Source: Patescibacteria group bacterium
Lineage (GTDB): Bacteria > Patescibacteriota > Minisyncoccia > Phycocordibacterales > JACOZG01
Length of the DNA: 64,000 nt
Assembly: GCA_034658935.1 (NCBI GenBank)
Contig: JAYEGE010000006.1
Span: forward strand, 24,912-88,911
Reading direction: 5' to 3'
Below the pieces are notes generated by a model. That model saw only the letters and a program-made list of their open reading frames with translations, ran no database searches and was not told where the DNA came from. Below, piece after piece: positions 19,852-56,987 of the stretch. The position numbers and the translations under genes are program-made. Numbering within the stretch: position 1 is the first letter of the stretch; the number at the start of each line of letters is the position of its first letter.

Positions 19852-19863
19852 ACGATTTTATGT

Positions 19864-21684: not shown

Positions 21685-21686
21685 AA

Positions 21687-22349: not shown

Positions 22350-22386
22350 GCTTTTTATTTTAGCATCTTTTATTAGATGCCCGGTA

Positions 22387-22794
22387 TTATCTAATGGTTT
22401 CTTTAACGTCTAGGCTCCAGGCTAGGTCCTTCAATTTGCTTTGTGAGAGACGAGGGACTTGGACTCCTTTTTTAGTTGAGTCTGCTTGCTCGGCCTCAGT
22501 ATTGGTCTCAGGCGCTTGGTGGCGCCAGATGAATAGCTTGCCCGACATAAAGTAACGGAGGGCCGACTCCATTACTAAGATGAAGGATCTATTGTTGATC
22601 CTATAGAAGGCTAAGGCTAGGGCCAGAGCGGCGATTGGTGCCATTAATATAATAGCTAGTGGTTTGAAAGATATCAGGGACCAGATAAGGAAGCATGTTC
22701 CTCCTCCACCGGCCAGGTAGGCAAATTGTTTGAAGGTTAGGGGGCCGAAAATTTTGTCTTCGACCTCAATAAATTGTGGTACCTGGAAATTCAT
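22387..22794 (-). CDS. PrgI/VirB3-like small membrane protein
   Basis: 135 aa. MNFQVPQFIEVEDKIFGPLTFKQFAYLAGGGG followed by two TM helices matches the PrgI-family (VirB3 analogue) pattern. Confidence 0.6.
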   Translation of the reverse strand: MNFQVPQFIEVEDKIFGPLTFKQFAYLAGGGGTCFLIWSLISFKPLAIILMAPIAALALALAFYRINNRSFILVMESALRYFMSGKLFIWRHQAPETNTEAEQADSTKKGVQVPRLSQSKLKDLAWSLDVKETIR

Positions 22795-22795
22795 T

Positions 22796-23674
22796 TTAAT
22801 TGGTTGGTTCTCTATAGGGATCTACGTGTTTGGGCGCAGTATCGACTGGTAGAGATTCAATCGGGGAACCAAAGTTCTTTTTAGTGGCGATCTCCACTCG
22901 CGGTAATTTATAATGACCGCCTAATTTTTGTTCAAACATATTGGGCTGACCGGCCTCGCCACTCGGTGCGGTCTTTTTTGCTCCACCTTCGGGGGCGACG
23001 GGTAGGTTGTTTGGTGGCGCGGCCGTGCTTAGCTCACTTAAGTCGGGTTTCTCAACGTCGCGCATAGCTATCCGTATGGGGAGGAAGATCTGCTTATTAA
23101 TTTCTTCGCTGATCTTAGTTGCTGTTTCCATATCTATGCCTAAACTAGTCTGCAATTGCTTAGGGAATTGGGTGGCGGTAGTTTGCCCAAGAATAACTTT
23201 GGTAGCTTCTTCGTTTAATTTCCCCATCTGATCGATATGGAGATTGTGTTGTTGGGCGATGAACATTGTCTTTGCCTCGGTATCCATGGAAGATAGTACC
23301 TCGCGAATACTCGTAGGCAAGGTAGAGTAACGGTCGTTGATTTTCTGCTCTCGAGCCTGTTGTTCAGTGTTGAGCTTTAGGATTGTTTCTTCAACATCTC
23401 GGAAGACTCTCTCTCGGACGCCGTTTATTAGTTGATCGGTAGTTGGTAAATTAATTGCCTTCTTGATATTGCTACCGAAATCATTTAGTTCTTCTAAACC
23501 AAAGAGAACTAGAGCGACCTCTATCTTTAGATCGTGTATTTGCCCACTATCTAATTGGTATCGGCGACCGATTTCAATTAGCTTATCTTCCCAATTATCA
23601 TGCCGAATAAAGTCCTGCAGGCGTGAAGGCAGGTATGGAAGCTCGGCAGCAAATTGTTTGATTATTTCATCCAT
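22796..23674 (-). CDS. hypothetical protein
   Basis: 292 aa, largely alpha-helical and charged, with a Pro-rich C-terminal region; located within the T4SS-like cluster. Confidence 0.5.
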   Translation of the reverse strand: MDEIIKQFAAELPYLPSRLQDFIRHDNWEDKLIEIGRRYQLDSGQIHDLKIEVALVLFGLEELNDFGSNIKKAINLPTTDQLINGVRERVFRDVEETILKLNTEQQAREQKINDRYSTLPTSIREVLSSMDTEAKTMFIAQQHNLHIDQMGKLNEEATKVILGQTTATQFPKQLQTSLGIDMETATKISEEINKQIFLPIRIAMRDVEKPDLSELSTAAPPNNLPVAPEGGAKKTAPSGEAGQPNMFEQKLGGHYKLPRVEIATKKNFGSPIESLPVDTAPKHVDPYREPTN

Positions 23675-23684
23675 AGTATTTTAA

Positions 23685-26051: not shown

Positions 26052-26052
26052 C

Positions 26053-28440
26053 TTAATTGGTTACTGACTGAAGCAAAGTTATGATAAAGTTGATGATCGC
26101 ATTTCGTAAATTCTCTACGGCATCGGGTCCTAAATCATCTCGTAGCAGGTCTTGATTGTTGGCAACAAATTGGTCGGCAAAGTCGGGGATGGTGTGGTTT
26201 ACATCCCATTGGCTCGGAGCCCTGTCCCCTTCGAATAGGTTAGTTATGTCTTGGAAATCAATCAAATCATTGAGAGCGTCTTCTCCTCCTTGAAAGAAAT
26301 CATCGATTAAGTCGTTAAGAAAGTCGTCGAGGTTGTCGGTAAGGGTGTTACCGAAATCCGCTTGCCAACTGCTGGGCCCTTGGCTATTGGTAGTGACGTC
26401 ACTTCCCGGGAAACCTTCTCTGTCTGGGGTAGCTTCTTCGTTCTCCCAGCCGGTGTCTGGGCATGGCTCAGTGCCGGGGCAAGGGTCGCCATCTTCCATT
26501 GGGTTCTCGATCTCTTCTTCGTCGATGAAGCCAGATTCACCCAGCTTCTTATTAATCGCTTGGATTTGTTTGACTAAGTAATCAGCATTGAAGGAAGGGT
26601 CATTGATCGCCAAGTCGAGATAAGCCTTAAGGTAGGCTTGTTGCATTGCCCGCATGGTGGCAGCGTCAGTGATGATCTCTTCTCTCCGACAATGCCCGTT
26701 TTTACTAAAGTCAACACATATTTTGATTCCCAGCCAGCCTTCGTTGGCGATGAGTTCTTCCCTGATATTTTGTTCAGTTACCTCCGTCTTTTGGTCGACT
26801 TCTCGTCTGGTTAGTAGGTAGGCGGTAAATTGATTATTGCCGGCTGTTGGGTCCCAAAAGTCAATATTGTCTCGCAGGGGGTCGTCACTCTCCCCTCTCA
26901 GAAAGGCGTCTCCTCTCTCTTGCCAAGTTTCGGAGGGCCCGACCCTGTCAGCAAGGTTTTGTCGTTGCTGATTTTCTTCGAGGATATCTCTGGCGGACTG
27001 AGCAGCCAATGGGGCTTCATTTTCTATTTCCTCTAAGTCGTCAATAACTACCAGAAAAGCATTTCTAATTTCGTCTAGGACCCTACGACGAAGGTTGGTG
27101 GTATAGAGAGGTGTAGTATTGGTGCCCTCAACATCCGTTGCTGATTTGGGCAAGACATGACCTGCGTTAACTAAGGAGAAATTTTCCCCAGCCGCTTTGT
27201 TTATGCCTCGGGCTCGGTTTTTAAAAGAATCAGGTTGGAGCTTACGGAAATAATTATTAAGGGCGGTGAGTTCACCAAGGATCATGTGCAAGCGGAAACA
27301 AGATTCAGAAAGCAAGTTCTTGTGCTTGAGTTGCTCCTCATAGTCTCGGTCCTCGTTCTCGTTACTCTGCTTAGTTTGTTTGTCTATGTTGCCTAGGATT
27401 TGGTGAGTAGTTGCGTCTGAGACTGGCACGCTATTTATTCCGCCGAGCCCCCCCAGATCTCCACCGCTAAACATCCCACCAAGGAAGTCAGTTAATGTGC
27501 CGTCTGTGAAATTGCTGAGGAGGCCATCAAAGCCATCTTCGATACCAAATCCTTCGAGAATGCTACTGGCGCCCCCGAGCCCAAAATCATCGAGGAGATT
27601 GTTAAAACTGAATCCTTCCTCTCCATCTCCAAGACCAAAGCCTTCGAAGAGGTCATTGAGAAAGCCTCCGTCCTGTTCCTGCTCCTTTTCGCACTTTTTC
27701 CGGTACTGTTTCCGCATGTCCTCTAAGCTTTTTTGATCAACAGCGCCGAAATTACCGCTAGTTCCTCCCCCAAAGATGCCGCCAAGATTTCCGATAGTGG
27801 AGAGGTCGCCTAAGTCGCCTGCTCCAACGATTTCACCAACGCTTCCCAGGGTGCCGGCATTGCCGAGGATCCCGTCTGCATCTCCAAGAATATTTCCGAC
27901 GTCTGCAATACTGCTAATATCTCCGATGTCTCCAAAGTCACCGATACTAAAGTCTCCAAGGATATCCCCAAAATCTCCGAGGAAGCCACCCTCTCCAAGA
28001 GCTCCGACACTCTCAAGAATATCTCCAATATCTCCAATACTGCCGATGTCTCCCACATCTCCAATAAGATCACCGAGGTCTCCAAGGCCACTGATCTCGC
28101 CGAGGTTAATGAAGTCTCCTAGGTCTCCGATGCTATCAATACCTGTGAAGTCCCCCAGATCTCCTAGCACTCCGTCAAGATCTCCAAGGAGATTTCCCAT
28201 GTCACCAAGGTCGTTGATATCTCCCAAATCGCTGAAGATACTACTGAAGTCGTCGAAATTAAAGTCTCCAGTGTCGCCGAGATCGGTTAGAAGGTCCCCA
28301 AGATCTCCAAGACTGGTGATGTCTCCGAAATTATCGAAAGAGAATTGAGCAGAAGCGCGTTGTGGCACCAGGCTGGCCGCTGTCACCAGGAGCCCTATTG
28401 CTAACCCGCTGGTGATAAATTTTTTCAATAAGGTTTTCAT
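26053..28440 (-). CDS. hypothetical secreted Gly-Asp repeat protein
   Basis: 795 aa with signal peptide MKTLLKKFITSGLAIGLLVTAASLVPQRASA. The N-terminal roughly 230 aa consist of about 40 degenerate (L/I)GD(L/I/F)GD units, followed by an acidic non-repetitive C-terminal domain. Confidence 0.6.
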   Translation of the reverse strand: MKTLLKKFITSGLAIGLLVTAASLVPQRASAQFSFDNFGDITSLGDLGDLLTDLGDTGDFNFDDFSSIFSDLGDINDLGDMGNLLGDLDGVLGDLGDFTGIDSIGDLGDFINLGEISGLGDLGDLIGDVGDIGSIGDIGDILESVGALGEGGFLGDFGDILGDFSIGDFGDIGDISSIADVGNILGDADGILGNAGTLGSVGEIVGAGDLGDLSTIGNLGGIFGGGTSGNFGAVDQKSLEDMRKQYRKKCEKEQEQDGGFLNDLFEGFGLGDGEEGFSFNNLLDDFGLGGASSILEGFGIEDGFDGLLSNFTDGTLTDFLGGMFSGGDLGGLGGINSVPVSDATTHQILGNIDKQTKQSNENEDRDYEEQLKHKNLLSESCFRLHMILGELTALNNYFRKLQPDSFKNRARGINKAAGENFSLVNAGHVLPKSATDVEGTNTTPLYTTNLRRRVLDEIRNAFLVVIDDLEEIENEAPLAAQSARDILEENQQRQNLADRVGPSETWQERGDAFLRGESDDPLRDNIDFWDPTAGNNQFTAYLLTRREVDQKTEVTEQNIREELIANEGWLGIKICVDFSKNGHCRREEIITDAATMRAMQQAYLKAYLDLAINDPSFNADYLVKQIQAINKKLGESGFIDEEEIENPMEDGDPCPGTEPCPDTGWENEEATPDREGFPGSDVTTNSQGPSSWQADFGNTLTDNLDDFLNDLIDDFFQGGEDALNDLIDFQDITNLFEGDRAPSQWDVNHTIPDFADQFVANNQDLLRDDLGPDAVENLRNAIINFIITLLQSVTN

Positions 28441-29285
28441 TATTTATATTGATCGAGATCTATACCTTGGTTATAAAAATAGCGATCCAATTGAGCGATG
28501 GCGCCGGCCACAGCTATCGCCTTGCCGGTATATACTTGGGTACTTTGGAAGGCGAGGACTGGTTCGTTAGGGATGCGAGAGATGTCGCGGATATTATTGG
28601 ATAGATCTTGCAAGCTATTAACCACATCTAGGTGCGTGGCTGCTGCGCTTTGTGGTACTGCGGCGCCACTCATCCTAGTGGCTCGTTGTTGGAAGAAATT
28701 ACTCATGCCAATGAGTTTGGTAATAATTGCTGGGTTACTATTTTCGTCGTAAGCCAAGGCGAGCCCAACAGCATTTTCTCCAGAGAAGGTCCGCATGTTT
28801 CTGAGGAACCCAACGAATACCAGGGTGTAAGCCTCAAGGGTGGCCTGATTAGTAGCCACAATATTGAGATCAGAGATCCGATAGCTGGTCTGACGCTGAG
28901 CTAATTCTTCCTGCTCTAGTTTCAGGAGCGGCTTCGTCCTCTCTTTTAGAGCTTGGCCCAGGGTGGCGGCTGCCCGCTCTTCTGGTCGGATCAATTGATC
29001 CCCTGGTCCAGGCTTGGTGGGGCTACGATCAGCTAGAACCTCGGCTCCATCGACGGTGCCGTCGCCGTCCGTGTCAGGATTATCTAGGTCACTACCCCAA
29101 AGCAGTTCTTCCCAATCGGCCAAGCCGTCGTTGTCACTGTCGCCCTGTTCTTGAAGGTAGAAAGGGACGTCGCTGTCTGTACCTGGGTTTTGTAGGCTTT
29201 TATCGCCGACGTACCATAAGGAAAATAACCCACCAGCAAGGAGGACAACCAGTAGCAAAACTACAATAAAAATTCTTCTCCCCAC
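28440..29285 (-). CDS. hypothetical membrane-anchored protein with DxDxDG calcium-binding-like motifs
   Basis: 281 aa with an N-terminal TM and motifs DSDNDGLADWEE and DTDGDGTVDGAE (thrombospondin type 3 / EF-hand-like). Confidence 0.55.
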   Translation of the reverse strand: MGRRIFIVVLLLVVLLAGGLFSLWYVGDKSLQNPGTDSDVPFYLQEQGDSDNDGLADWEELLWGSDLDNPDTDGDGTVDGAEVLADRSPTKPGPGDQLIRPEERAAATLGQALKERTKPLLKLEQEELAQRQTSYRISDLNIVATNQATLEAYTLVFVGFLRNMRTFSGENAVGLALAYDENSNPAIITKLIGMSNFFQQRATRMSGAAVPQSAAATHLDVVNSLQDLSNNIRDISRIPNEPVLAFQSTQVYTGKAIAVAGAIAQLDRYFYNQGIDLDQYK

Positions 29286-30900: not shown

Positions 30901-31643
30901 TGTTCTAAAGTTAATTCTTCAGCTCTCGCCTTGGGTTCAATTTTACAACTCTCTAATACGTCTGTCGATACATTTAAATTGCTAGCAAGTAATTTACGTT
31001 TATGAGCAAAGCCCTTTTTAAGTAAAGTGAAGAATCTTTCTTCCTCTCCCTTGGTAGCCAACCTATCTCGAGAAATCTCATCAATAAGTAATATGGCCGA
31101 ATCAACTTTAGACCTTGGTGTGAAGTGCCTGGCGGCAACTCTGGCAACGAGACGTGGCTGACCAAAAACTTTCACGCTTAAAGACAGTAAACTTTCTTTA
31201 ACTTTGGTGCGGGCGCCGCGGCGAGCCGTGGTTGCGATGCGCTCTGCTACTTCTTGTTGGAGCATTAAGACCACTAACTCGGGTTGTTGCACGGCGGTTA
31301 GTAGCTGGCGCAGGATCTGTCCGGTCAGATAATACGGAATATTGGCCACCACCTTGTATTTACCCTTAAGCGCTTGGTCGACGATATCGCCATGAATGAC
31401 CACTAATTTCCCCGTTTCCACCGCCCCACTGAAGCGATTATTGAGAAAACTGATTAACCGATCGTCTTTTTCCACTGCCACCACCTTCCCCGCCTGTTTC
31501 AATAGGGCCCCAGTTAGGAAACCCCTTCCCGGCCCTATTTCGAGTACGGCGTCTTTGGTTCCCAATTTGGCAGCCTTAATGATTTTGCTCCGAATAGCCG
31601 CGCTATTCAGCCAATTTTGCCCCAATGATTTCTTCGCCCTCAT
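30858..31643 (-). CDS. rsmA: 16S rRNA (adenine1518/1519-N6)-dimethyltransferase
   Basis: 261 aa with SAM-binding motif LEIGPGRGFLT and the NIPY motif (VVANIPYY). Confidence 0.9.
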   Translation of the reverse strand: MRAKKSLGQNWLNSAAIRSKIIKAAKLGTKDAVLEIGPGRGFLTGALLKQAGKVVAVEKDDRLISFLNNRFSGAVETGKLVVIHGDIVDQALKGKYKVVANIPYYLTGQILRQLLTAVQQPELVVLMLQQEVAERIATTARRGARTKVKESLLSLSVKVFGQPRLVARVAARHFTPRSKVDSAILLIDEISRDRLATKGEEERFFTLLKKGFAHKRKLLASNLNVSTDVLESCKIEPKARAEELTLEQWLCLTNFINTQAK

Positions 31644-31674
31644 ACTTCTGTCCCCAATCTGGCCTCCTTATCCC

Positions 31675-31698
31675 ATTTGGACACTTCGTGTCCAAATT
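31675..31698. repeat. REP palindrome TTTGGACACTTCGTGTCCAAAT
   Basis: Perfect palindrome inside the 3-prime end of the RAYT ORF. Confidence 0.9.
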
Positions 31699-31838
31699 TA
31701 TTTTCGACAATATCTTGGAGGGAAGCCTCGGCGAACTCTCGGTATTCTTTGGGGCTCCCGAATTGGCTTAAAATAAGGCTTTTATCGCAGATCGTCCCCG
31801 CGTTATCTCCCAAATACTCACTCCAACTAGTCCGTGCT

Positions 31839-31862
31839 AATTTGGACACTGCGTGTCCAAAT
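31839..31862. repeat. REP palindrome TTTGGACACTGCGTGTCCAAAT
   Basis: Perfect palindrome inside the RAYT ORF. Confidence 0.9.
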
Positions 31863-32344
31863 GAATGGGCTTGATGGTTGAGGTTGATATAGACGCTGAG
31901 ATGCAATAAATACTCATCCGAATCCACATGTTTTGCCTGGAACCCACTTTCCCATAGCCTCCCTTTCCGCTTGTAACGAGCGTTGAAATACTTGCTGTAT
32001 CCCATATTTAGACGTTGCATGAAGCGCTCGATACCTTTTTCGGCAGTTGGTTGAACCAAGAAATGATAATGGTTTGGATTAATGGCGTAAGCTACGAATT
32101 TAACCAATGGTGATTTGGCTCCATTGATAGGTGGATAGCCGAGCTTCTCTAGGCGTTTGTCGATAAAGGGTTTTTCGTAGAGGCTACCAGTGGTTTGTTT
32201 GCTATTGAATTCCCGTAAGGCCAAGAAAAAACGCTCAACATCACTATTATCGAGAAAAACCGACCTTTTCTCTACTCCGCGATTATAAATATGGTAGAAT
32301 TCGCCCTCTACGAATGGTTTTTTCCTCATTGTCGCCATCTTAAC

Positions 32345-32368
32345 ATTTGGACACTGCGTGTCCAAATT
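32345..32368. repeat. REP palindrome TTTGGACACTGCGTGTCCAAAT
   Basis: Perfect palindrome at the 5-prime end of the RAYT ORF. Its translation gives the spurious MDTQCPNV N-terminus. Confidence 0.9.
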
Positions 32369-46227: not shown

Positions 46228-47139
46228 ATGGTCAAAGATTTAAAACAATTAAAGGGGCAGTTTTTAGAATATTTAGAGATTGAACGTGGGCGGAGTCTAT
46301 TGACTGTCGCTAATTACGATCGCTATCTCCAGCGCTTTTTTGACCACAGCAAAGTGAAGTCGCCCTCTGATATCAACGATGAGGCGGTTAGGAAATTTAG
46401 GTTGTGGTTAAATCGCTTACCCGGCGACAAAATGGTGACAGGTAGTTTAAAGAAGAATACCCAGAATTATTATTTAATCGCCTTGCGCACTTTCCTTAAG
46501 TATTTGGCCAAGATGGACATTAAGTCTTTGCCGCCAGAGCGGATTGAGTTAGCTAAGACACCCGCCCGAGAACTAGATTTGATCAGTGGTGATGAGCTAG
46601 GGCGGCTGCTCAAGGCGCCAGATGGTAAGGCTGAGAAGGACTTGCGCGATAAGGCTATCTTGGAACTCCTTTTCTCTACTGGCCTGCGTGTTTCAGAGCT
46701 ATGCGGGTTAGACACTGGTACTGTGGATTTAAAGAAGACGGAGTTCACAGTCCGGGGCAAGGGCGATAAGGTGCGGCTGGTCTTCGTCTCCCCTGCCGCT
46801 AAGACCGCTCTTAAGAATTATCTGGGGGCCAGGCGAGATATGAGTGATGCCCTCTTTGTAAATATTGGTGATGAACCAGGCCGCCTAACCCCTCGGAGTA
46901 TCGAGCGCCTAATTAAGTTCCACGCTGTTAAAGCGGGCATTACTAAGAAGGTCACCCCGCACGTTATTCGGCATAGTTTCGCCACTGACCTACTCCGTAA
47001 CGGTGCTGATATCCGCTCTGTCCAGATGATGCTTGGCCACGCCGATATCTCCACTACTCAAATCTATACTCACGTTACCGACCAGCACCTAAAAGATATC
47101 CACAAGGATTTTCATAACAATCCCAAATCAGATTCTTGA
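46228..47139 (+). CDS. tyrosine site-specific recombinase XerC/XerD family
   Basis: 303 aa with an N-terminal SAM-like domain and catalytic-domain motifs R...HVIRHSFAT...LGHADISTTQIYTHV (R-H-R-Y tetrad). Confidence 0.88.
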   Translation: MVKDLKQLKGQFLEYLEIERGRSLLTVANYDRYLQRFFDHSKVKSPSDINDEAVRKFRLWLNRLPGDKMVTGSLKKNTQNYYLIALRTFLKYLAKMDIKSLPPERIELAKTPARELDLISGDELGRLLKAPDGKAEKDLRDKAILELLFSTGLRVSELCGLDTGTVDLKKTEFTVRGKGDKVRLVFVSPAAKTALKNYLGARRDMSDALFVNIGDEPGRLTPRSIERLIKFHAVKAGITKKVTPHVIRHSFATDLLRNGADIRSVQMMLGHADISTTQIYTHVTDQHLKDIHKDFHNNPKSDS

Positions 47140-47326: not shown

Positions 47327-48799
47327 CTACTTTACGCCGTATTTAGAGCGAATCTTAGAAATCTCAGCTTGTTCAATCTTTTCTTTCTTCTCTTTGCCCC
47401 CCTCCCCCATTTTCTTAAGTTCTTTTTTGTCTAGTTTAGCTAATTCTTTAGCTCGTGCTATTAATTTATCTGTTTCGTTATTCTCGGGTTTATCTAAGGT
47501 TTCTTCCAATAGAGCATGCAAAATATGGCCAATCTTGGGCCCAGCCTCTAGGCCGGTTTCATGTATAACGTTGTCACCGTCTATTTTGAGCATTGTCACC
47601 GAGGTTGGGGCCCTCAGAGCCTCCTCTATCATCGACTCGTATTTCCTTAGCCGATAAGGACTCTCCTTTGGTCGGCCCATGCCAATACGGTCGCACATTC
47701 TGACAGACATCAGATCCCAAACCTCTTCTCGGCCAACGTTCCTAATGATCCGCCTTACGGCCGACAAAGTGATTTTCTCTATATCGGTGAAGAACATATG
47801 GTTACGCACTAATTTGGCGATCAGGTCGGTTGTTTTCTTGGGGAACTTAAGGCGCTCGAGGACCTGCCTGGCTGTTCTTGCTCCTACCACGTCATGACCA
47901 TAGAAGGTCCAGTCCTTCTTTTCGTCCCCCCATTTCCTAGTCCTTGGTTTACCAATGTCGTGGAAGAGGGCGGCTAGTCTCACGTGTAACGGATATTTCC
48001 TGTCAGCTGAGTGTTGGAGGGCCCGCAAACTATGTTCCCAGACCTCGTACATGTGATCTCCGTTCTGTTTCACATGAATCCCTTCCTCTAATTCAGGCAA
48101 GAATTCTCGTAGAACCCCCAACTTATTGGCTAAAACTAGCCCTATCATGGGTTGGTCGGTCATTATAATCCGAATAAACTCCTCCCTAATTCGCTCAGCA
48201 GAGATAATCTTCAATAAATGGGCGTTCTTGCTTATACTAGTGGCCGTTTCAGACTCAATAGCAAAGTTCAATTGAGTGGCCAGTCTAATTCCCCTCAATA
48301 TTCGTAGAGAATCTTCAGAAAGGCGCTCGTCCGGGTCCCCTACTGCCCTGATCAGCTTGTCCTTTAGGTCCTCCTGGCCACTATAAAGGTCAATCACCTT
48401 GTTTTCGTCTTGGTCGAGAGCCAGAGCGTTAACCGTGAAGTCTCGTCTTTTGAGGTCATCTTCTAGATTATTGCTCCAAGTAACCTCGTCGGGCCGCCTT
48501 TGGTCTGAGTACTTGGCCTCTAGTCTGAACGGTGTAATCTCTACACATCTAATGCTCTTATCTTCGCACTCTTCATTGACCACTGATACGGTGCCGTAAT
48601 CGTTTTCGTAAAAAGTTTTAGGGAATAAGGCGGCAATTTCCTCTGGTCTAGCGTTGGTGGTAATATCCCAATCTTTAGGTTTTAGGCCGGCGACAAGGTC
48701 ACGAACGCAGCCACCGACCAAGTAGGCCTGAAAACCGCCCTTTTTCAGGCTTTTAGTTATACGTGTAACCTCTTCTGGGATGGAGAACTTAGATACCAT
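47327..48799 (-). CDS. cca: CCA-adding tRNA nucleotidyltransferase with HD domain
   Basis: GGCVRDLVAG head motif, an HD domain, and a Lys/Glu-rich C-terminal tail. The track N-terminal extension to 48904 translates the upstream tRNA-Gly gene; the start is the ATG at 48799 (MVSKFSIPEE). Confidence 0.85.
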   Translation of the reverse strand: MVSKFSIPEEVTRITKSLKKGGFQAYLVGGCVRDLVAGLKPKDWDITTNARPEEIAALFPKTFYENDYGTVSVVNEECEDKSIRCVEITPFRLEAKYSDQRRPDEVTWSNNLEDDLKRRDFTVNALALDQDENKVIDLYSGQEDLKDKLIRAVGDPDERLSEDSLRILRGIRLATQLNFAIESETATSISKNAHLLKIISAERIREEFIRIIMTDQPMIGLVLANKLGVLREFLPELEEGIHVKQNGDHMYEVWEHSLRALQHSADRKYPLHVRLAALFHDIGKPRTRKWGDEKKDWTFYGHDVVGARTARQVLERLKFPKKTTDLIAKLVRNHMFFTDIEKITLSAVRRIIRNVGREEVWDLMSVRMCDRIGMGRPKESPYRLRKYESMIEEALRAPTSVTMLKIDGDNVIHETGLEAGPKIGHILHALLEETLDKPENNETDKLIARAKELAKLDKKELKKMGEGGKEKKEKIEQAEISKIRSKYGVK

Positions 48800-48814
48800 A
48801 TGGTGCTTATGTTG

Positions 48815-48885
48815 TGCGGGTAGGGAGAATCGAACTCCCGACTCATCCTTGGCAAGGACGTATTTTACCACTAAACCATACCCGC
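48815..48885 (-). tRNA. tRNA-Gly (anticodon GCC)
   Basis: The 71-nt sequence GCGGGTATGGTTTAGTGGTAAAATACGTCCTTGCCAAGGATGAGTCGGGAGTTCGATTCTCCCTACCCGCA folds as a cloverleaf: acceptor GCGGGTA/TACCCGC, anticodon loop TTGCCAA, T-loop TTCGATT. No CCA is encoded. Confidence 0.9.
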
Positions 48886-48947
48886 TTACGCCTAAATGTA
48901 GCATAATATTTTTAAAAGAGCTAGAATTATAAAGCTCTTATTTGCAA

Positions 48948-49574: not shown

Positions 49575-49590
49575 TCTACTATTTGGACAG

Positions 49591-49613
49591 ATTTGGACAC
49601 TCAATGTCCAAAT
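49591..49613. repeat. REP palindrome ATTTGGACACTCAATGTCCAAAT (preceded by a half-site ATTTGGACAG)
   Basis: Palindrome with one arm mismatch, plus an extra upstream half-site. Confidence 0.85.
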
Positions 49614-49647
49614 ATCCTCAAACCACGGCTTGAAATAAGGTTTTAAA

Positions 49648-49672
49648 ATTTGGACATTGAGTGTCCAAATTA
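49648..49672. repeat. REP palindrome AATTTGGACATTGAGTGTCCAAATT
   Basis: Second member of a doublet 35 bp from the previous copy. Confidence 0.85.
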
Positions 49673-49984
49673 TTTGGTAGATGGAGTGTGGGGTACGGAT
49701 GGATAAAAAGAAGCCCCATCCGTAAGATGCGAATGAGGCCCGGTCTAGTCTGAGAGATTTAGCTGGGCTTGTTGCTCCATGAGGAGGGCAGGTCCTTCGT
49801 TGCTGTTGCTCAGCGACGGGGTTACCTTCGGTTTCCTGATTACCGAGTCTACTTAGCCGGCTCTGACCAGCTAAGTGGAGTGGTAAAATGTCGTTTCAAC
49901 CTCTTCCTCACGACAATCTCTCTGACAAGACCTGGATCCAATGTCTACCCTACCTAGGATAGGAATTAATGTTAATCCCTTTGT

Positions 49985-51939: not shown

Positions 51940-51954
51940 CGGGGGCTCTTTTTA
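51929..51954. terminator. terminator hairpin GCCCCCGCTTGACGGGGGC plus T-run
   Basis: Read directly; it lies between convergent genes. Confidence 0.6.
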
Positions 51955-53148
51955 CTTCGAATAAATCCGTTTCATCAAAGGATTAAGTCTGGTCACAATT
52001 TCGTAATTAGTAGTCCCGGTAAGTGCCGCCAATTCGTCAGCGTTAACTTCTTTCTCGCCGTCTTTACCAATTAAAATAACTTCTTCGCCAACTTTGTCTT
52101 TGGCCTTGGGCCCAAGATTGATAATTAAGATGTCCATTGAAACACGACCTAGTATCCGACAACGCCTACCGCTTACCAAGACGTGACCAATGCTAGAGAG
52201 CGCTCGTGGGTAGCCATGCCAATACCCTATAGGGCAGATACCGGCAACAGTTTCTTGTTCTAGAGTTTCAGTGAAGTCGTAACCAATTCGATCGCCACGC
52301 TTCAGCTTCTTCGTTTCACCGACGACTGTCTTCCAAGTCAGGACGGGTTGTAATTTAATATGATCTCCCAGGGCAGCGGCTACTTCAGCTGAGGGCCAAA
52401 GGCCATAGAGAGAGATCCCTATTCGCACTAGATCGAAATGGGTTTCGGGGAAGAGTAAGGTGCCAGAGCTAGCGGCGGCGTGTCGGATGGGGGAGTAGCC
52501 CGCCTTCTCGATCAACCCCACCGCCTGGCGGAACAGATCAGATTGTTGGCGAGTGTCTCGGGGGAAGGCGGGGTTCTTGGCCGCCGCGAAATGAGTATAA
52601 ATACCAACGAGATTTTCTGTGGGGACACTTTTTTGTTTTAGGAAACGGATGATCGCTGGGAGCTCCGCCAATCGCAGACCTTGCCTACACATACCGGTGT
52701 CTATCTTGAGATGAAACCGGAGTCCTCTATTGGAAACATGTTCCATGGCGCGAACCAATGCTTCCAATCCCTCCTTGGTTGAGATACTTAAATCGAGATT
52801 ATGTCCGCTCGCTTTAGCTAATCTCTCCGGCAAGGTGTGGCCGAGAATAAGGATGGGGGCCTTGGCGCCATGCTCGCGGAGAGCGGTCCCTTCAACAATA
52901 GAATCAACTGCCAACCAATCGGCGCCGAGCCGCTCCATCTCGCGTGCGAATTGGAAGATGTCGTGGCCATAAGCATTAGATTTAACCACTGCCATTAGCT
53001 TGGTCTTCTTCCCAATCAATTGGCGGAAGATTTGATAATTGTTCTTGAGGGCCGAGCGGCTGATCTCTACCCAGGTTCTTAATCCCGCATTAGCAGAACT
53101 TAGGCTCTTGGGCGCTTTAACCTTAGGTTTATTGCTTTTGGGTTTCAC
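51952..53148 (-). CDS. alr: alanine racemase
   Basis: 398 aa with PLP-binding motif AVVKSNAYGHD and a C-terminal beta domain. Confidence 0.88.
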   Translation of the reverse strand: MKPKSNKPKVKAPKSLSSANAGLRTWVEISRSALKNNYQIFRQLIGKKTKLMAVVKSNAYGHDIFQFAREMERLGADWLAVDSIVEGTALREHGAKAPILILGHTLPERLAKASGHNLDLSISTKEGLEALVRAMEHVSNRGLRFHLKIDTGMCRQGLRLAELPAIIRFLKQKSVPTENLVGIYTHFAAAKNPAFPRDTRQQSDLFRQAVGLIEKAGYSPIRHAAASSGTLLFPETHFDLVRIGISLYGLWPSAEVAAALGDHIKLQPVLTWKTVVGETKKLKRGDRIGYDFTETLEQETVAGICPIGYWHGYPRALSSIGHVLVSGRRCRILGRVSMDILIINLGPKAKDKVGEEVILIGKDGEKEVNADELAALTGTTNYEIVTRLNPLMKRIYSK

Positions 53149-53266
53149 AATCTCATCCTAACGGAAGTCTGCCGCCCCCGCAAACCGTTGGAAGAGGCGG
53201 CTTGTCCGGGGCGCCCCTTTCGACTACAATGCGGCCATAGATTATTGTTAGTAATTACACTCTTAT

Positions 53267-54121
53267 ATGAATGAATCTTTAGCGAAAGTGTGGGCCAGCA
53301 TCCTGCCCTGGCTCACTGATCATGGAGTCAAGATCGTGCTTATTATCTTGATGGCGTTCATCGTCCAGAAATTCGGCGGTCTCTTTATCGAGAAATTGAT
53401 CAGGAGGATCATCGTGGCCGATCCTTTGCGTCCACCTAATTCAGAGAGGAAGCGCGAGGACACTCTTATTCAAATATTCGTTGGTACCTTGAAGATCGTC
53501 TTGTGGTTGGTGGTCCTGATGCTTGTGTTAGAAGAAGTGGGGATTGCCATTGGTCCGATTATCGCTGCTGCTGGGATTGTGGGCTTAGCCTTCGGCTTCG
53601 GTGGTCAATACTTGATCCGCGATCTCATTAGTGGGCTCTTTGTAATCATGGAGAATCAATACCGGATCGGCGATGTGGTAAGCATCGCTGGTATTAGTGG
53701 TTCGGTAGAAGACATTAGTTTACGGATGACGACTCTGCGTGATCTTGATGGGGCGGTTCATCACATACCACACGGAGAGATTACTACGGTTTCTAACTTG
53801 TCCAAATATTTTGCTCGGGTCAATCTAGATATTGGTATTTCTTACGACGCTAATTTAGAAAAGGTTATTGCGGTAGTTGATAAGGTGGGGGAGGACATGG
53901 CCGCTGATGCAGAATGGAAGGAGCATATTACTAAACCGCCGAAATTCTTGCGAGTGAATGATTTTGCCGATTCCTCTGTGATGATTAAAATCCTCGGTGA
54001 GACTAAGCCGCTCAAGCAATGGGAAATTACTGGCGAGCTCCGCAAGCGCCTCAAGATTGCCTTCGACCGCGAAGGCATCGAGATCCCTTTCCCTCAACGC
54101 GTCATCCATCAAGCTAAATAA
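53267..54121 (+). CDS. small-conductance mechanosensitive channel (MscS family)
   Basis: 284 aa with three N-terminal TM helices and the MscS beta-domain. Confidence 0.8.
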   Translation: MNESLAKVWASILPWLTDHGVKIVLIILMAFIVQKFGGLFIEKLIRRIIVADPLRPPNSERKREDTLIQIFVGTLKIVLWLVVLMLVLEEVGIAIGPIIAAAGIVGLAFGFGGQYLIRDLISGLFVIMENQYRIGDVVSIAGISGSVEDISLRMTTLRDLDGAVHHIPHGEITTVSNLSKYFARVNLDIGISYDANLEKVIAVVDKVGEDMAADAEWKEHITKPPKFLRVNDFADSSVMIKILGETKPLKQWEITGELRKRLKIAFDREGIEIPFPQRVIHQAK

Positions 54122-54130
54122 GATAAAAAA

Positions 54131-54176
54131 ACTTAGACACAGCATGTCGAACTCCCAGACACGACGTGCCCAAGTT
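54131..54176. repeat. degenerate composite double-REP element
   Basis: ACTTAGACAC-AGC-ATGTCGAACTCCCAGACAC-GAC-GTGCCCAAGT has the same architecture as the 45707 and 59328 elements, with arm mutations. Confidence 0.65.
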
Positions 54177-54402
54177 TTTGTTTCCTGCTGAAAATTTCCC
54201 TGGCTCTCGCGCCGTCGCGCTCCGAGACGGTCTTTCTAGCAACATCGGCTTCCGTGGATTCGAACACTTCGTGTCTTGCTTGCCCGTCACGGAGTGCCCA
54301 AATCCACATTGGAGTGAAACTAGACATTTTTGTCGCCATGGCACAAATATGCTAGCCTTGGCTTAGTTTTAGACATTATTAATCGTAATTTCTGTATTAA
54401 TT

Positions 54403-55524
54403 ATGAATGCAACAATAAAGTGGATAATTGGCATAATCATTGTTATCGCGATCATCTGGATCGGTTTCTCGCTAGGAGATAAGCAGCCAGCTGAAACGGG
54501 GCCAATCAAGATCGGCCTCTCTGCCCCCCTCACTGGTGAAGGGACCAGCTTCGGCGACGGGATGAGAGCTGGGGCCCAACTCGCCGTCAGCGAGATAAAT
54601 GAAGCTGGTGGTGTTGATGGGAGGATGGTGGAAGTTATCTATGAAGATGATACATGTACTGCTAGGGGTGGATCCACTGTCTTTAACAAATTGGTGAATG
54701 TGGACCGAGTTGATGCTATTGCTGGGCCACTTTGCTCAGCAGTTGGGGCGGCTGGTTTACCAATAGCTCAGGAAGCCGGAGTCCCAACAATTGAGTTTGG
54801 ATCGGCTCCAGCTCTCCCAGCGATAGGGGATTATATTTTCCGAACTTACCCCTCCGATTCTTTCCAGGGGAAATTTACCGCTGAGTATTTAACCGATGAG
54901 CTCAGTAAGAAAAAAGCTGCTGTGTTGTATGTAAAGAATGATTGGGGGCAGGGTCTTAGTGATGTCTTCGAAGCATCCTTTACTGAATTGGGTGGCGAAG
55001 TGGTTTATAACGAGGGTGTAGCCCCAGAGACTAAAGATCTCAAAAGCTTCATCGCTAAGATCAAATTGGCCGAACCCGATGTTATCTATTTACCTGCTTA
55101 CCCAAATATTGCCATCATTGGGTTGAGGCAAATGGCAGAAGCGGGGATAGATGTTCCTATCTGGTCTGGCGATGCCTTCGACACAGATGAGATCGTCAAG
55201 TCTGGTGTGGCTGATGGTGCGGTATATGTTAGGGCTCTGACGGCTAGCCCAGATGACTTCAAACAACGTATCAAAGATGAGACAGGAATAGATTCTAATC
55301 TGCCTACCCCTTTGACCTACGATGCTATTCACATCCTTGCCAAGGTTTTTGGGGAGGTTGGAACAGACAAGGAGGCAGTTAGAGATGCTCTAGCCAGTTT
55401 GTCTTACAGAGACGCTGTTTCCCTACCCCTTATTGAGTTCGACGAATTGGGAGACCTCACTACGGCTGAGTTCGAAATCATGACTATCCAGAATGGTGAG
55501 GCAGTGCCGTACGTCCAGGAATAA
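54403..55524 (+). CDS. periplasmic substrate-binding protein, LivJ-like (paralog of 36247-37308)
   Basis: 373 aa with an N-terminal TM anchor; IKIGLSAPLTGEGTSFGDGMRAGAQLAVSEINEAGG is the same family as the earlier SBP. No transporter partners are adjacent. Confidence 0.7.
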   Translation: MNATIKWIIGIIIVIAIIWIGFSLGDKQPAETGPIKIGLSAPLTGEGTSFGDGMRAGAQLAVSEINEAGGVDGRMVEVIYEDDTCTARGGSTVFNKLVNVDRVDAIAGPLCSAVGAAGLPIAQEAGVPTIEFGSAPALPAIGDYIFRTYPSDSFQGKFTAEYLTDELSKKKAAVLYVKNDWGQGLSDVFEASFTELGGEVVYNEGVAPETKDLKSFIAKIKLAEPDVIYLPAYPNIAIIGLRQMAEAGIDVPIWSGDAFDTDEIVKSGVADGAVYVRALTASPDDFKQRIKDETGIDSNLPTPLTYDAIHILAKVFGEVGTDKEAVRDALASLSYRDAVSLPLIEFDELGDLTTAEFEIMTIQNGEAVPYVQE

Positions 55525-55552
55525 AAATTCAGACGACGTAAATTGAGAAATC

Positions 55553-55590
55553 AAAAACCAGTCAGGCATCGCCTGGCTGGTTTTTGATTG
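55553..55590 (+). terminator. rho-independent terminator after SBP gene
   Basis: Hairpin CCAGTCAGGCATCGCCTGGCTGG followed by TTTTTG. Confidence 0.6.
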
Positions 55591-55687
55591 CGACAGAAAT
55601 AGTCTTAAAGAATCTACGGTCGTAGGTTTTGTAAGACTGGGGGACAATTAAAGGTTACCCTTGGTACGGGTTTAGGCCCTGATTTTA

Positions 55688-55712
55688 GTTTTGGACACTG
55701 CGTGTCCAAATT
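55688..55712. repeat. REP palindrome TTTTGGACACTGCGTGTCCAAATT
   Basis: Perfect core palindrome. Confidence 0.9.
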
Positions 55713-55792
55713 CAATCGTTTTCTCACCGGCAAGAATCTTAGGTATCAACCGCCACGACTTATTTATTATCGCTAGATGGTCCATCATATAT

Positions 55793-56203
55793 CTATTTAG
55801 TTATATCAGCTCCGCCATTAAAGTATCCCTCGGTAACTTCTAGGGAATCATCGACGGGGATGACGGTTCCATTCTGCATTGCTATTTCGATCTCGACGTT
55901 ACCTTCTGTGGGCCTGACTCCTTCAGCTATCGATAGGGTGATGTGGGGGTGCTCATTGGTGGACTTCTCATTCTCTACCAATAATACATCCACTTTATCT
56001 GTTGTAACGCGGCCGGTGATTGCGATGGTTTGCTTCTCACCCACCTCGATATCGGCCAGCCCGTTCTGCGGTCTGAACTCGATTGTTGAATGATGATAAA
56101 AATGCCTTGGGTGGACGGGCGGATATTTCGCCTTCAGCGCCCCAACATCATCGACAAATCTCGCTGTATATATCACCCGTTCATTTCTTTGTGATGGTTC
56201 CAT
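55793..56203 (-). CDS. hypothetical protein
   Basis: 136 aa with no recognised motif. Confidence 0.45.
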   Translation of the reverse strand: MEPSQRNERVIYTARFVDDVGALKAKYPPVHPRHFYHHSTIEFRPQNGLADIEVGEKQTIAITGRVTTDKVDVLLVENEKSTNEHPHITLSIAEGVRPTEGNVEIEIAMQNGTVIPVDDSLEVTEGYFNGGADITK

Positions 56204-56225
56204 GGTTTTGTAGGTTAACTATTTT

Positions 56226-56417
56226 GGTGCGGGATGGGAGAATCGGTCACGAGTTACTAAGCTTTTTACTCCAGGTATTCGTAAAAATCTAAGTACTCTC
56301 GACTCCGACTCGCGACCCCGCAAGCTTGCGGGGTATCCGCTCCGTCTTTCGATTCTCCCTCCGCGCGGATGGAAACCAAGAAAGGCTAGCCTTTCAGGCC
56401 AACCTTTCTTGGTTTTA
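56226..56417 (-). other. tRNA-Gly 3-prime-end direct repeat plus 172-bp palindrome-rich segment
   Basis: TGCGGGATGGGAGAATCG (18 nt) at 56228-56245 is identical to the tRNA 3-prime end at 56418-56435. The enclosed segment holds the perfect 18-nt palindrome CCCCGCAAGCTTGCGGGG, a 10-bp stem CCAAGAAAGG/CCTTTCTTGG, and an inverted CGATTCTCCC copy. Confidence 0.6.
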
Positions 56418-56488
56418 TGCGGGATGGGAGAATCGAACTCCCAACCACAGTTTGGAAAACTGTTATTTTACCATTAAACTAATCCCGC
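56418..56488 (-). tRNA. tRNA-Gly (anticodon TCC)
   Basis: GCGGGATTAGTTTAATGGTAAAATAACAGTTTTCCAAACTGTGGTTGGGAGTTCGATTCTCCCATCCCGCA has a standard cloverleaf with anticodon loop TTTCCAA. Confidence 0.9.
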
Positions 56489-56596
56489 CTGCGCTAAAGC
56501 TTCGGCGGGCAAGGCCCGCTTTGGCTATATTCCTATGCTACCACAAAATTAAAACCCCGCGAGTGGGGCTTTAATCTTTTAGTTTAACCAAAGTCG

Positions 56597-56869
56597 TTAT
56601 TTAACAGCGTCTTTTAGGGCCTTGGCTGGTCGGAACTTAGGCACACGCATGGCTTGGACCTGGATAGGCTCTCCAGTGCGTGGATTACGAGCTGTACGCG
56701 CAGCTCGCTTGCGGGTGGAAAAAATACCCAAGCCAGCGATCGAAACTTCGCCGTCACCTTTCAAGGTTTGGATGATAGAGCTGACAACAGTATCGACTGC
56801 CTGCTCTGCCATTACCTTAGTGCCGCCAATAGTCTCGTGTACTGCGTCAATAAGTGCTTGTTTATTCAT
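56597..56869 (-). CDS. hup: DNA-binding protein HU
   Basis: 90 aa; GLGIFSTRKRAARTARNPRTGEPIQV matches the HU arm. Confidence 0.9.
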   Translation of the reverse strand: MNKQALIDAVHETIGGTKVMAEQAVDTVVSSIIQTLKGDGEVSIAGLGIFSTRKRAARTARNPRTGEPIQVQAMRVPKFRPAKALKDAVK

Positions 56870-56987
56870 GTATATATTTTATGGCTACTAAACTCGACCA
56901 TATCCTCTAACTGCGACCCATTATACTCCTGGCCCTATTTTTAGGCAATATCTGGAGGATTAGACATATATTTGACGTTTCTTGCCA

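What the first reader, a model, noticed from the sequence alone, without database searches (positions are those of the whole stretch)
56226..56488. tRNA-Gly(TCC) with an 18-nt direct repeat of its 3-prime end 172 bp downstream, bracketing a palindrome-dense segment
TGCGGGATGGGAGAATCG occurs at 56418-56435, where it is the tRNA 3-prime end, and again at 56228-56245. In the distal copy it is followed by CCA in tRNA orientation. Between the copies are three features. One is a 10-bp perfect stem flanking a palindromic loop (CCAAGAAAGG-CTAGCCTTTCAGGCCAA-CCTTTCTTGG). Another is the fully self-complementary 18-mer CCCCGCAAGCTTGCGGGG. The third is an inverted 10-nt copy CGATTCTCCC of the same tRNA segment. 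A duplicated tRNA 3-prime end is the classic scar of site-specific integration at a tRNA gene, so this looks like a miniature or decayed integrative element or an attL/attR remnant. Alternatively it is a tRNA-derived structured RNA.
Basis: seen in the sequence. Interest (0 to 1): 0.6.

Follow-up and report, generated by a model that had tools for sequence, protein, structure and literature searches.

The report
Structured element inserted in tRNA-Gly
The 18-base repeat brackets one intact copy of a widespread, uncatalogued family of small folded non-coding elements that sit at the 3' ends of tRNA and tmRNA genes in Patescibacteria, a counterpart of the unexplained "tRNA-linked repeats" of E. 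coli.

Summary

The 172 bp plus one repeat is not a decayed island or att scar. It is a complete copy of a conserved element, of which the window holds exactly one.
- More than 120 copies were found in metagenomes, and 15 matches (11 strong) in 80 related genome loci.
- They lie downstream of at least 20 different tRNA species and of tmRNA.

Each copy has the same order in tRNA orientation:
- a tRNA 3' end (C56-N73);
- a hairpin;
- an antisense copy of that 3' end;
- a three-way-junction core ending in YGUGAC;
- a second copy of the local tRNA 3' end.

The fold has strong covariation on the tRNA strand.

The geometry is that of an insertion at the T-loop. The distal repeat is most likely the displaced native 3' end:
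- CCA follows only distal copies;
- the closest relatives have empty sites;
- one heterologous Gly-into-Pro insertion was found.

No integrase, reverse transcriptase or transposase is linked to the copies. There are no phage or plasmid matches.

Architecturally it matches E. coli RtT and the tRNA-linked repeats, but it does not match that Rfam model. The mobilising mechanism and the RNA's function remain inferred.

The parts
56418..56488 (-). tRNA-Gly(TCC) gene; no CCA encoded after the proximal 3' end
   Evidence: ARAGORN; Rfam RF00005 70.6 bits; sequence
56418..56435 (-). Proximal repeat X (tRNA positions C56-A73). It is the functional tRNA 3' end and is inferred to be supplied by the element.
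   Evidence: Exact 18-nt repeat. Inference on origin from CCA asymmetry and the L129 heterologous copy.
56373..56415 (-). Hairpin T1 (20-bp stem, weak U tract), a terminator-like trailer hairpin
   Evidence: Inverted repeat I1; MFE fold; inner part flagged as terminator-like on the minus strand
56348..56366 (-). X': antisense copy of tRNA positions 54-73 (GCGCGGAGGGAGAAUCGAA). It forms the 5' strand of helix P1.
   Evidence: Inverted repeats I2 and I3; specific to the local tRNA across the family; P1 pairs
56307..56346 (-). Helix P2: a 3-bp base, a conserved GGA/GA internal loop, and a variable hairpin that here includes the 18-mer palindrome 56316-56333
   Evidence: Alignment A1 and pair counts, (pairs 18-20/65-67 100% paired with four pair types; 24-26/60-62)
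56246..56303 (-). Helix P3: GUCGAGAG...CUCGUGAC with an invariant G:U, a bulged A and a long apical hairpin. It ends in the family-wide YGUGAC directly before the distal repeat.
   Evidence: G74:U135 in 41 of 41; eight pairs with compensatory changes; MFE
56228..56245 (-). Distal repeat X. It is the 3' strand of P1 and is inferred to be the displaced native tRNA 3' end.
   Evidence: positional identity profile and flank statistics; empty sites
56225..56227 (-). CCA following the distal repeat, a genomically encoded CCA of the original tRNA end
   Evidence: CCA follows 5 of 26 distal copies, 0 of 38 proximal copies and 9 of 61 unoccupied tRNA genes. Relative L213 encodes CCA at its empty site.

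Best explanation
The repeat brackets one complete copy of a family of small (about 100-190 nt), protein-less, structured elements. These elements occupy the 3' end of tRNA and tmRNA genes in Patescibacteria (Paceibacteria).

The unit, read in tRNA orientation, is:
- a replacement tRNA 3' end (C56-N73);
- a hairpin or terminator (T1);
- an antisense copy of the tRNA 3' end (X');
- a three-way-junction core (P2 and P3) ending in YGUGAC.

The unit sits between T-loop positions 55 and 56. The gene therefore stays intact, and the original 3' end (here with its encoded CCA) is pushed 190 bp downstream as the distal repeat.

Shown here:
- the family exists;
- its fold and the strand that folds;
- its link to the local tRNA;
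- the insertion geometry;
- empty sites in relatives;
- the absence of linked mobility genes.

Inferred:
- The element is transcribed as the tRNA trailer by read-through of T1.
- X' pairs with a tRNA 3'-end copy to close the junction. This helix imitates the stacked acceptor and T stems. It would keep X' from invading the tRNA, and it may let tRNA-processing enzymes define the RNA's ends.
- New copies arise by recombination or template switching at the near-universal T-loop sequence, through an agent acting in trans.

It works like the E. coli tRNA-linked repeats (RtT), which have the same layout.
For: Family:
- The core pattern gives more than 120 metagenome hits.
- 92 of 126 copies have a tRNA 25-270 nt upstream on the same strand, covering at least 20 anticodon classes. 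At least 10 more follow tmRNA.
- Model R1 finds 1 copy in the window, 15 in 80 related loci and 125 in 100 metagenome loci.

Fold:
- 89.9% of cells are paired, against 73% when shuffled and 33-43% when slid.
- 227 compensatory cells against 75 expected; covariation score 0.462 against 0.154, reached by 0 of 500 shuffles.
- One G:U pair is invariant, and G:U pairs outnumber A:C by 87 to 20. This places the fold on the tRNA strand.
- The window's MFE structure reproduces the consensus fold.

Link to the tRNA:
- The exact repeat is typically 18 nt, C56-N73.
- X' pairs better with the local tRNA than with other tRNAs: -14.2 against -9.7 kcal/mol, in 73 of 87 copies, p = 1e-12. This holds even where the distal copy has decayed.

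Geometry:
- Identity between the two repeats falls from 0.97 to 0.75 along the repeat and drops to background after position 74.
- CCA follows 5 of 26 distal copies, 0 of 38 proximal copies and 9 of 61 unoccupied tRNA genes.
- In L129 a Gly-type X, T1, X' and core sit inside a tRNA-Pro T-loop, with a Pro-type distal copy.
- Tandem arrays contain non-identical units.
- Empty sites occur in the closest relatives and in the same gene context (L066/L053 against L067).

Parallel with E. coli: RtT units end in 19 nt of tRNA-Tyr, and the Rfam consensus closes with a helix between an internal complement and that repeat (PMC8144298).
Against: - No transcript data exist. T1 may terminate most transcription, in which case the RNA would be rare.
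- No enzyme or intermediate for insertion was identified.
- Cores that are 91-94% identical occur beside different tRNAs with entirely different X, T1 and X'. This fits conversion of cores between resident copies at least as well as it fits movement of whole units.
- Only one clear heterologous insertion (L129) was found among 58 scored copies.
- The acceptor part of the distal repeat decays in about half of the copies. A full acceptor-like end bearing CCA therefore cannot be essential.
- The fold could be adopted by single-stranded DNA rather than by RNA.
Confidence: 0.6

Rival explanations
1. Host small-RNA gene that is not mobile. The element is a vertically inherited trailer sRNA, as proposed for the E. 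coli tRNA-linked repeats RrA/B/F. The terminal copy of the tRNA 3' end exists only so that the same nucleases mature it. Spread among tRNA loci came from rare local duplications plus gene conversion.
For: - Strong purifying selection on an RNA-type fold.
- Orthologous tmRNA-linked copies in related organisms differ by compensatory changes (L089, L108, L158).
- Near-identical cores occur with locus-specific X, T1 and X', which suggests conversion between resident copies.
- The E. coli precedent for read-through transcription and processing at the repeat (PMC8144298).
Against: - About 15% of tRNAs are occupied in an unbiased sample, across many isoacceptors, and the closest relatives have empty sites.
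- Arrays of up to four different units occur.
- Decayed copies, the CCA asymmetry and the Gly-into-Pro chimera are the dynamics of insertions, not of a single-copy gene.
Confidence: 0.2
2. A DNA element folded as single-stranded DNA and moved by a recombinase acting in trans. Candidates are an HUH Y1 (IS200/RAYT-like) enzyme or a Xer-type tyrosine recombinase. The X':X stem would re-create a duplex copy of the tRNA-gene target, as folded attP does for CTX phage and as attC does in integrons. The comparison with those systems rests on my own knowledge.
For: - The fold is strand-specific, and the two ends of the self-contained unit abut at the junction (P3 stacked on P1).
- The window encodes a Y1_Tnp-like protein (31640-32365) and a Xer-like recombinase (46228-47139).
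- Both junctions of the L129 copy lie in CGATTCTC.
Against: - Neither gene is adjacent to the element, and neither type is enriched near about 120 copies.
- IS200/IS605-type insertion makes no duplication and carries no target copy.
- The excised junction GTGAC-CGATTC lacks the symmetric arms expected of a tyrosine-recombinase core site (sequence).
- An invariant G:T pair is less natural in DNA.
Confidence: 0.1
3. An intron-like or ribozyme element in the tRNA T-loop. X' would act as an internal guide spanning U54-U55 and C56 onward, aligning the 5' part of the tRNA with the distal 3' end. The three-way junction would cleave or ligate at GUGAC|CGAUUC.
For: - The repeat boundary coincides exactly with the zero-nucleotide junction between P3 and P1.
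- Junction and loop nucleotides are invariant although unpaired: AA(R), the GGA/GA loop, RGG and the G:U pair.
- X' extends two nucleotides (AA) beyond the repeat, opposite U54 and U55.
Against: - Splicing is unnecessary, because the proximal copy already gives a complete tRNA.
- Distal copies decay.
- No known ribozyme or intron family matches, even at E up to 10.
- The junction sequences do not fit the hammerhead core (inspection).
Confidence: 0.06
4. One reading: a decayed remnant or attL/attR scar left by a larger integrase-borne island or prophage.
For: - A target duplication of the T-loop-to-3'-end class is what tyrosine-integrase islands leave (Islander description, PMC4383910 abstract).
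- Presence/absence polymorphism.
Against: - The same about 100-nt core, with compensatory changes, is conserved in more than 120 copies at many tRNAs.
- No integrase lies within 4 kb in any cluster of neighbouring genes.
- No match in viral contigs, phage records or plasmids.
- Independent deletions would not leave the same structured 170 bp each time.
Confidence: 0.03

Closest known systems
E. coli tRNA-linked repeats, in particular RtT RNA (Rfam RF00391) of the tyrT-tyrV operon and RrA/B/F after 5S rRNA
   Same: - They lie directly downstream of a stable-RNA gene on the same strand.
- They end with 18-19 nt identical to that gene's 3' end.
- Units are 150-190 nt and occur singly or in arrays of one to five.
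- They sit behind a first terminator.
- The closing helix pairs an internal complement with the terminal repeat (PMC8144298).
   Different: - There is no sequence or model similarity: RF00391 does not hit the window even at E up to 10.
- The core is different: a three-way junction with a GGA/GA loop and GUCG/UGAC.
- The repeat starts at C56 and excludes CCA, because these genomes mostly do not encode it.
- The antisense segment covers the whole 54-73 stretch.
- The family also follows tmRNA, and it occurs in a different phylum at far higher copy diversity.
Genomic islands or prophages integrated in tRNA/tmRNA genes by tyrosine integrases (T-loop sublocation)
   Same: - The element supplies a replacement 3' part of the gene, and the displaced fragment marks its far end.
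- The identity block runs from the T-loop to the gene's end.
- tmRNA is also used as a target.
- Arrays and decaying fragments occur (PMC4383910).
   Different: - About 190 bp in size, with no integrase or any other gene.
- An RNA-type conserved fold.
- One family serves at least 20 tRNA species, whereas integrases are site-specific.
- Not found in phage or plasmid collections.
REPIN/RAYT and other hairpin-forming non-autonomous repeats (MITE-like)
   Same: Small, non-coding, multi-copy and hairpin-rich. They are intergenic and often double as terminators. A Y1 HUH gene is present in the window.
   Different: The placement is strictly tRNA-linked, and the ends are copied from the local tRNA. 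No association with the Y1 gene has been shown. The core is a branched junction, not a simple palindrome.

Membership tests
tRNA-linked repeats (as defined for E. coli) | Located immediately downstream of a tRNA/rRNA gene in the same operon orientation | tested here: met
   The element starts at the tRNA 3' end on the same strand. The same holds for 92 of 126 family copies.
tRNA-linked repeats (as defined for E. coli) | 18-19 nt at the unit's 3' end identical to the 3' end of the upstream stable RNA | tested here: met
   18 of 18 identical in the window. The modal exact length in the family is 18.
tRNA-linked repeats (as defined for E. coli) | Transcribed by read-through of a first terminator and processed at the repeat | not testable with these tools
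   The T1 hairpin is present. No expression data are available.
RtT RNA, Rfam RF00391 | Match to the covariance model at or near its gathering score (45 bits) | tested here: not met
   No RtT hit in 56000-56700 at E up to 10. The model scores 134-138 bits on E. coli units.
RtT RNA, Rfam RF00391 | Outer helix formed by an internal complement and the terminal tRNA-derived repeat | tested here: met
   P1 has 10 pairs, 88% paired, with compensatory changes at four of them. The RtT consensus is shown.
Integrase-borne island in a tRNA gene | Target gene regenerated by element sequence, with the displaced 3' fragment at the far end | tested here: met
   CCA asymmetry and the identity profile; the L129 chimera; empty sites. 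This evidence is indirect.
Integrase-borne island in a tRNA gene | Integrase gene inside the element or adjacent to it | tested here: not met
   No ORF of 50 aa or more on the tRNA strand lies within the 190 bp. No recombinase, reverse transcriptase or transposase cluster appears among the neighbours of about 120 copies. The only tyrosine recombinase in the window is Xer-like and 9 kb away.
Known ribozymes, introns and RNA families (Rfam 15) | Significant covariance-model match | tested here: not met
   Only the tRNA is matched. All other hits are sub-threshold microRNA-type hairpin noise.
tRNA-primed retroelement (primer-binding-site logic) | Antisense segment complementary to the mature tRNA 3' end, including CCA | tested here: not met
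   X' in the window is preceded by AUCC, not UGG. In other copies the inverted repeat continues into the genomic trailer (C plus an A tract), not into CCA.

The most novel reading that the evidence does not exclude
The family could be a new class of structure-dependent mobile element. It would target the universal T-loop of tRNA and tmRNA genes, carry a spare copy of the gene's 3' end, and use its antisense segment plus the three-way junction (as RNA or as single-stranded DNA) to align donor and target. In that case the E. coli tRNA-linked repeats, unexplained since 1978, would be relics of the same process.
Probability: 0.15. Interest if true: 0.9.

Novelty: new variant of a known kind. Interest (0 to 1): 0.68.

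Why it matters
- tRNA-linked repeats have been known in E. coli since 1978, and most still have no accepted origin or function.
- This study finds an architecturally identical family in a distant, reduced-genome phylum. It is unrelated in sequence, far larger and clearly under structural selection.
- That makes the layout (a stable-RNA 3' end, its complement, a core, then the 3' end again) look like a general solution rather than an enterobacterial oddity.
- It also supplies hundreds of diverged copies from which rules can be derived.
- About 15% of the tRNA genes sampled here in these bacteria carry such an appendage. This matters for tRNA annotation, for mapping genomic islands, and for any model of tRNA maturation in Patescibacteria.

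Tried and rejected
- Known RNA families. Rfam at gathering threshold and at E up to 10 found only the tRNA.
- Phage or plasmid origin. The core pattern gave no hit in viral contigs. blastn of the element gave no hit in phages or plasmids.
- Linked mobility gene. Clustering of all ORFs within 4 kb of about 120 copies gave only housekeeping families: HU, RNase Y, SmpB, UPF0102, LepA, S20 and RuvA. A GIY-YIG-like protein and an HTH protein each recur upstream in 7 loci; neither was pursued.
- Pfam scan of 54 of the 56 largest window ORFs (plus HU). It found one Xer-like recombinase and one Y1_Tnp-like protein, neither adjacent to the element.
- Retro-origin from mature tRNA. CCA after the distal copy (5 of 26) is no more frequent than at unoccupied tRNA genes (9 of 61), and X' lacks the complement of CCA.
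- Hammerhead-type core. The junction sequences do not fit (inspection of A1).
- Cis-regulation of a downstream gene. Downstream genes differ between copies.
- Exact look-up of orf136 returned nothing. The Logan contigs of the same organism were too fragmented to show alleles.
- Literature searches for a described Patescibacterial counterpart found none in the held library. One search failed on syntax.

Full report
**Observation**

The window carries tRNA-Gly(TCC) at 56418-56488 on the minus strand. Its last 18 nt (C56 to the discriminator A73) recur exactly at 56228-56245. With up to three mismatches, 0.04 matches are expected by chance.

The distal copy is followed by CCA in tRNA orientation. 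None of the other four tRNA genes in the window encodes CCA.

Between the copies lie three features:
- a 20-bp-stem hairpin (56373-56415);
- a 19-nt inverted, imperfect copy of the tRNA 3' end (56348-56366);
- the 18-mer palindrome (56316-56333).

**It is a family, not a one-off**

RNase Y relatives from 80 species-level genomes, all Patescibacteria/Paceibacteria, were fetched and scanned. Ten more tRNA-Gly(TCC) genes, and some Pro, Arg and Gly(GCC) genes, carry a copy of their own 3' end 90-300 nt downstream. The intervening sequences share motifs.

In this sample, which was not selected for the element, 10 of 67 tRNAs have such a copy downstream and none has one upstream.

A pattern from two conserved blocks found nothing in viral contigs.
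- 92 of 126 copies have a tRNA 25-270 nt upstream on the same strand. These cover at least 20 anticodon classes: Gly x3, Glu, Arg, Trp, Pro, Lys, Cys, His, Ala, Val, Met, Tyr and Leu.
- Most copies end in an exact copy of that particular tRNA's 3' end, with a modal length of 18 nt starting at C56.
- Many copies that seemed to lack a tRNA follow tmRNA genes instead.

**Anatomy and fold**

In tRNA orientation every unit reads:
1. tRNA 3' end (X);
2. C plus an A tract, hairpin T1, then a U tract;
3. X', roughly the reverse complement of tRNA 54-73, sometimes interrupted by an extra hairpin;
4. AAR;
5. P2, with a 3-bp base, a GGA/GA internal loop and a variable hairpin;
6. RGG;
7. P3, GUCGNGA...YNGUGAC, with a bulged A and a variable hairpin;
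8. a second X.

On a 41-sequence alignment (A1) this three-way junction is strongly supported:
- 89.9% of cells are paired, against 73.2% after shuffling and 33-43% with partners slid.
- There are 227 cells with changes on both sides, against 75 expected.
- The covariation score is 0.462 against 0.154, reached by 0 of 500 shuffles.

One G:U pair is invariant (41 of 41), and G:U pairs outnumber A:C by 87 to 20. The folded strand is therefore the tRNA strand.

The window's own MFE structure (-97.6 kcal/mol, z = -9.4) reproduces the T1 hairpin, the 17-bp X':X helix and both arms. The opposite strand is 11 kcal/mol weaker.

A covariance model (R1) gives these counts:
- exactly one copy in the window (56227-56363, 101.6 bits);
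- 15 copies in the 80 genome loci;
- 125 copies in 100 metagenome loci.

The metagenome copies include arrays of up to four non-identical units behind one tRNA or tmRNA.

**Relation to the local tRNA**

X' is specific to its neighbouring tRNA. Duplex energy with the local tRNA's 61-73 averages -14.2 kcal/mol, against -9.7 for other tRNAs. This holds in 73 of 87 copies (p = 1e-12).

Where the T-loop differs, as in the Leu tRNAs with UUCGAGU or UUCAAGU, both X' and X follow it.

X' stays complementary to the real tRNA end even in the 30 copies whose distal repeat has decayed.

**Which repeat is native?**

Five lines of evidence bear on this.
1. Identity between the two repeats is 0.97 in the T-loop part, 0.89 in the T-stem part and 0.75 in the acceptor part. 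It falls to background after position 74.
2. CCA follows 5 of 26 perfect distal copies. It follows 0 of 26 proximal copies here and 0 of 12 occupied tRNAs in the genome set. Unoccupied tRNA genes encode CCA in 9 of 61 cases. The distal copy and its flank therefore look like an ordinary tRNA gene end, and the proximal one does not. Zero in 38 at a 15% rate has a probability of about 0.002 (my arithmetic).
3. Contig L129 holds a tRNA-Gly with its element. It also holds a roughly 90% identical second copy whose X, T1, X' and core are all Gly-type. That second copy is joined on the left to a tRNA-Pro fragment within the shared GAGTTCGATTCTC and on the right to a Pro-type 3' end. There, the unit that moved included X, T1, X' and the core, and the distal repeat belonged to the target.
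4. In the RNase Y-HU context, empty genes read tRNA, terminator, HU. Filled genes read tRNA, element, X, the same kind of terminator, HU (L066/L053/L069 against L067).
5. The closest relatives of the window organism were reached through near-identical HU proteins. They have HU followed by tRNA-Gly(TCC) in the same orientation, and the tRNA is followed directly by unrelated sequence. These are L205-207 (HU 93%, tRNA differing at two bases), L210/211, and L213 with an encoded CCA.

The window therefore carries an insertion of 190 bp placed between T-loop positions 55 and 56. Equivalently, it can be described as placed after position 73 or 74.

**What moves it?**

Nothing was found.
- The 190 bp encode no protein.
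- ORFs within 4 kb of about 120 copies cluster only into housekeeping families.
- The element is absent from phage and plasmid records.
- The window has a Xer-like tyrosine recombinase 9 kb away and an IS200-like Y1 protein 24 kb away. Neither type recurs near the copies.

Cores that are 91-94% identical occur next to different tRNAs with wholly different X, T1 and X'. Exchange between resident copies at the two universal T-loop-derived motifs (GAAUCGAA and CGAUUC) therefore also happens.

A retro-origin from mature tRNA is not supported. X' lacks the complement of CCA, and distal CCA is no more frequent than at unoccupied genes.

**Comparison with known systems**

E. coli has 22 tRNA-linked repeats at ten loci, one to five per locus. 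Each ends in 18-19 nt of the upstream tRNA's or 5S rRNA's 3' end. Most have no known function. The rRNA-linked ones are made by read-through of a first terminator and appear to be processed at the repeat (PMC8144298).

I fetched the tyrT-tyrV locus.
- It holds three 178-bp units, each ending in AATCCTTCCCCCACCACCA.
- The Rfam RtT consensus closes with a helix between an internal GGGGAAGGAU and that repeat.

This is the same layout as here. RF00391 nevertheless does not match the window element. The cores are unrelated, and no Rfam family covers it.

The geometry also matches tyrosine-integrase islands in tRNA/tmRNA genes (PMC4383910). The defining integrase is absent, however, and one family here serves many tRNA species.

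**Verdict**

The 'integration' geometry is supported, and the 'decayed remnant' reading is rejected.

The object is a complete member of a large structured family that I found neither in Rfam 15 nor in the held paper library. I class it as a new variant of the tRNA-linked-repeat kind.

The fold, the family, the tRNA linkage and the insertion polymorphism are shown. The displaced-end geometry rests on indirect evidence. Transcription, processing by tRNA enzymes and the means of spread are inferred.

Noticed in passing
window 31640-32365 (-): A 241-aa protein with an IS200-like Y1 transposase domain (PF01797, E = 2.4e-10; HUH motif HYHFLV). It is wedged between ksgA and uvrD with almost no intergenic space. 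It could be a domesticated RAYT-like enzyme.
   Followed up: partly
window 46228-47139 (+): A 303-aa Xer-type tyrosine recombinase (Phage_integrase plus SAM_1 domains). It lies next to the CCA-adding enzyme gene (47327-48904) and about 1.7 kb from the tRNA-Gly(GCC)/tRNA-Arg pair. It is the only tyrosine recombinase found in the window.
   Followed up: partly
window 55793-56203 (-): A 136-aa ORF starts 21 nt after the displaced tRNA end. It has two HxT/S motifs (HHSTI, HPHITL) and a weak hit to the fungal tRNA-ligase phosphodiesterase domain (E = 0.033). It looks like a small 2H-phosphoesterase. It has 77 homologues, mostly unannotated, from metagenomes.
   Followed up: partly
L001 3382-3624 (Logan contig of the same organism, SRR26901924): The contig ends exactly at ...CTCGTGAC, the boundary between the core and the distal repeat. 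The neighbouring contig L002 stops about 100 nt past the binding-protein gene. This could reflect strain variation at the junction or simply low coverage.
   Followed up: no
window 49580-49960: Two copies of a roughly 21-nt palindrome (TTTGGACACTCAATGTCCAAA and TTTGGACATTGAGTGTCCAAA) are followed by a GC-rich intergenic stretch of about 270 nt before tRNA-Pro(GGG). The stretch looks structured but has no Rfam match at gathering threshold.
   Followed up: no
window 16947-29285 (-): A type IV secretion-like cluster (T4SS pilin, TraG-type P-loop ATPase, PrgI) is followed by several large ORFs (788 and 795 aa) with no Pfam match.
   Followed up: no
L061 and L082 (downstream of tRNA-Gly), L070, L042, L130 4400-4560, L148 13580-13760, L074 6700-7050, L063 7860-8136: Other cores that model R1 does not recognise share the same layout: an antisense copy, a core, then a copy of the local tRNA 3' end. 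One example is 177-bp tandem units behind a tRNA-Pro. Several distinct families of such elements therefore exist.
   Followed up: partly
L129 (whole 2.5-kb contig): The tRNA-Pro locus is scrambled. It holds a 5' fragment (positions 1-37), an intact gene, a 3' fragment fused to a Gly-type element, and a Pro-type terminal repeat. The locus looks like a hotspot of T-loop-centred rearrangement.
   Followed up: partly
L003 3250-5530 compared with window 51952-56870: In the relative with 83% RNase Y identity, the tRNA-Gly gene is inverted relative to HU and lies about 700 bp from alanine racemase. The window has orf136, a periplasmic binding protein and an MscS channel inserted between the tRNA and alanine racemase.
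   Followed up: partly
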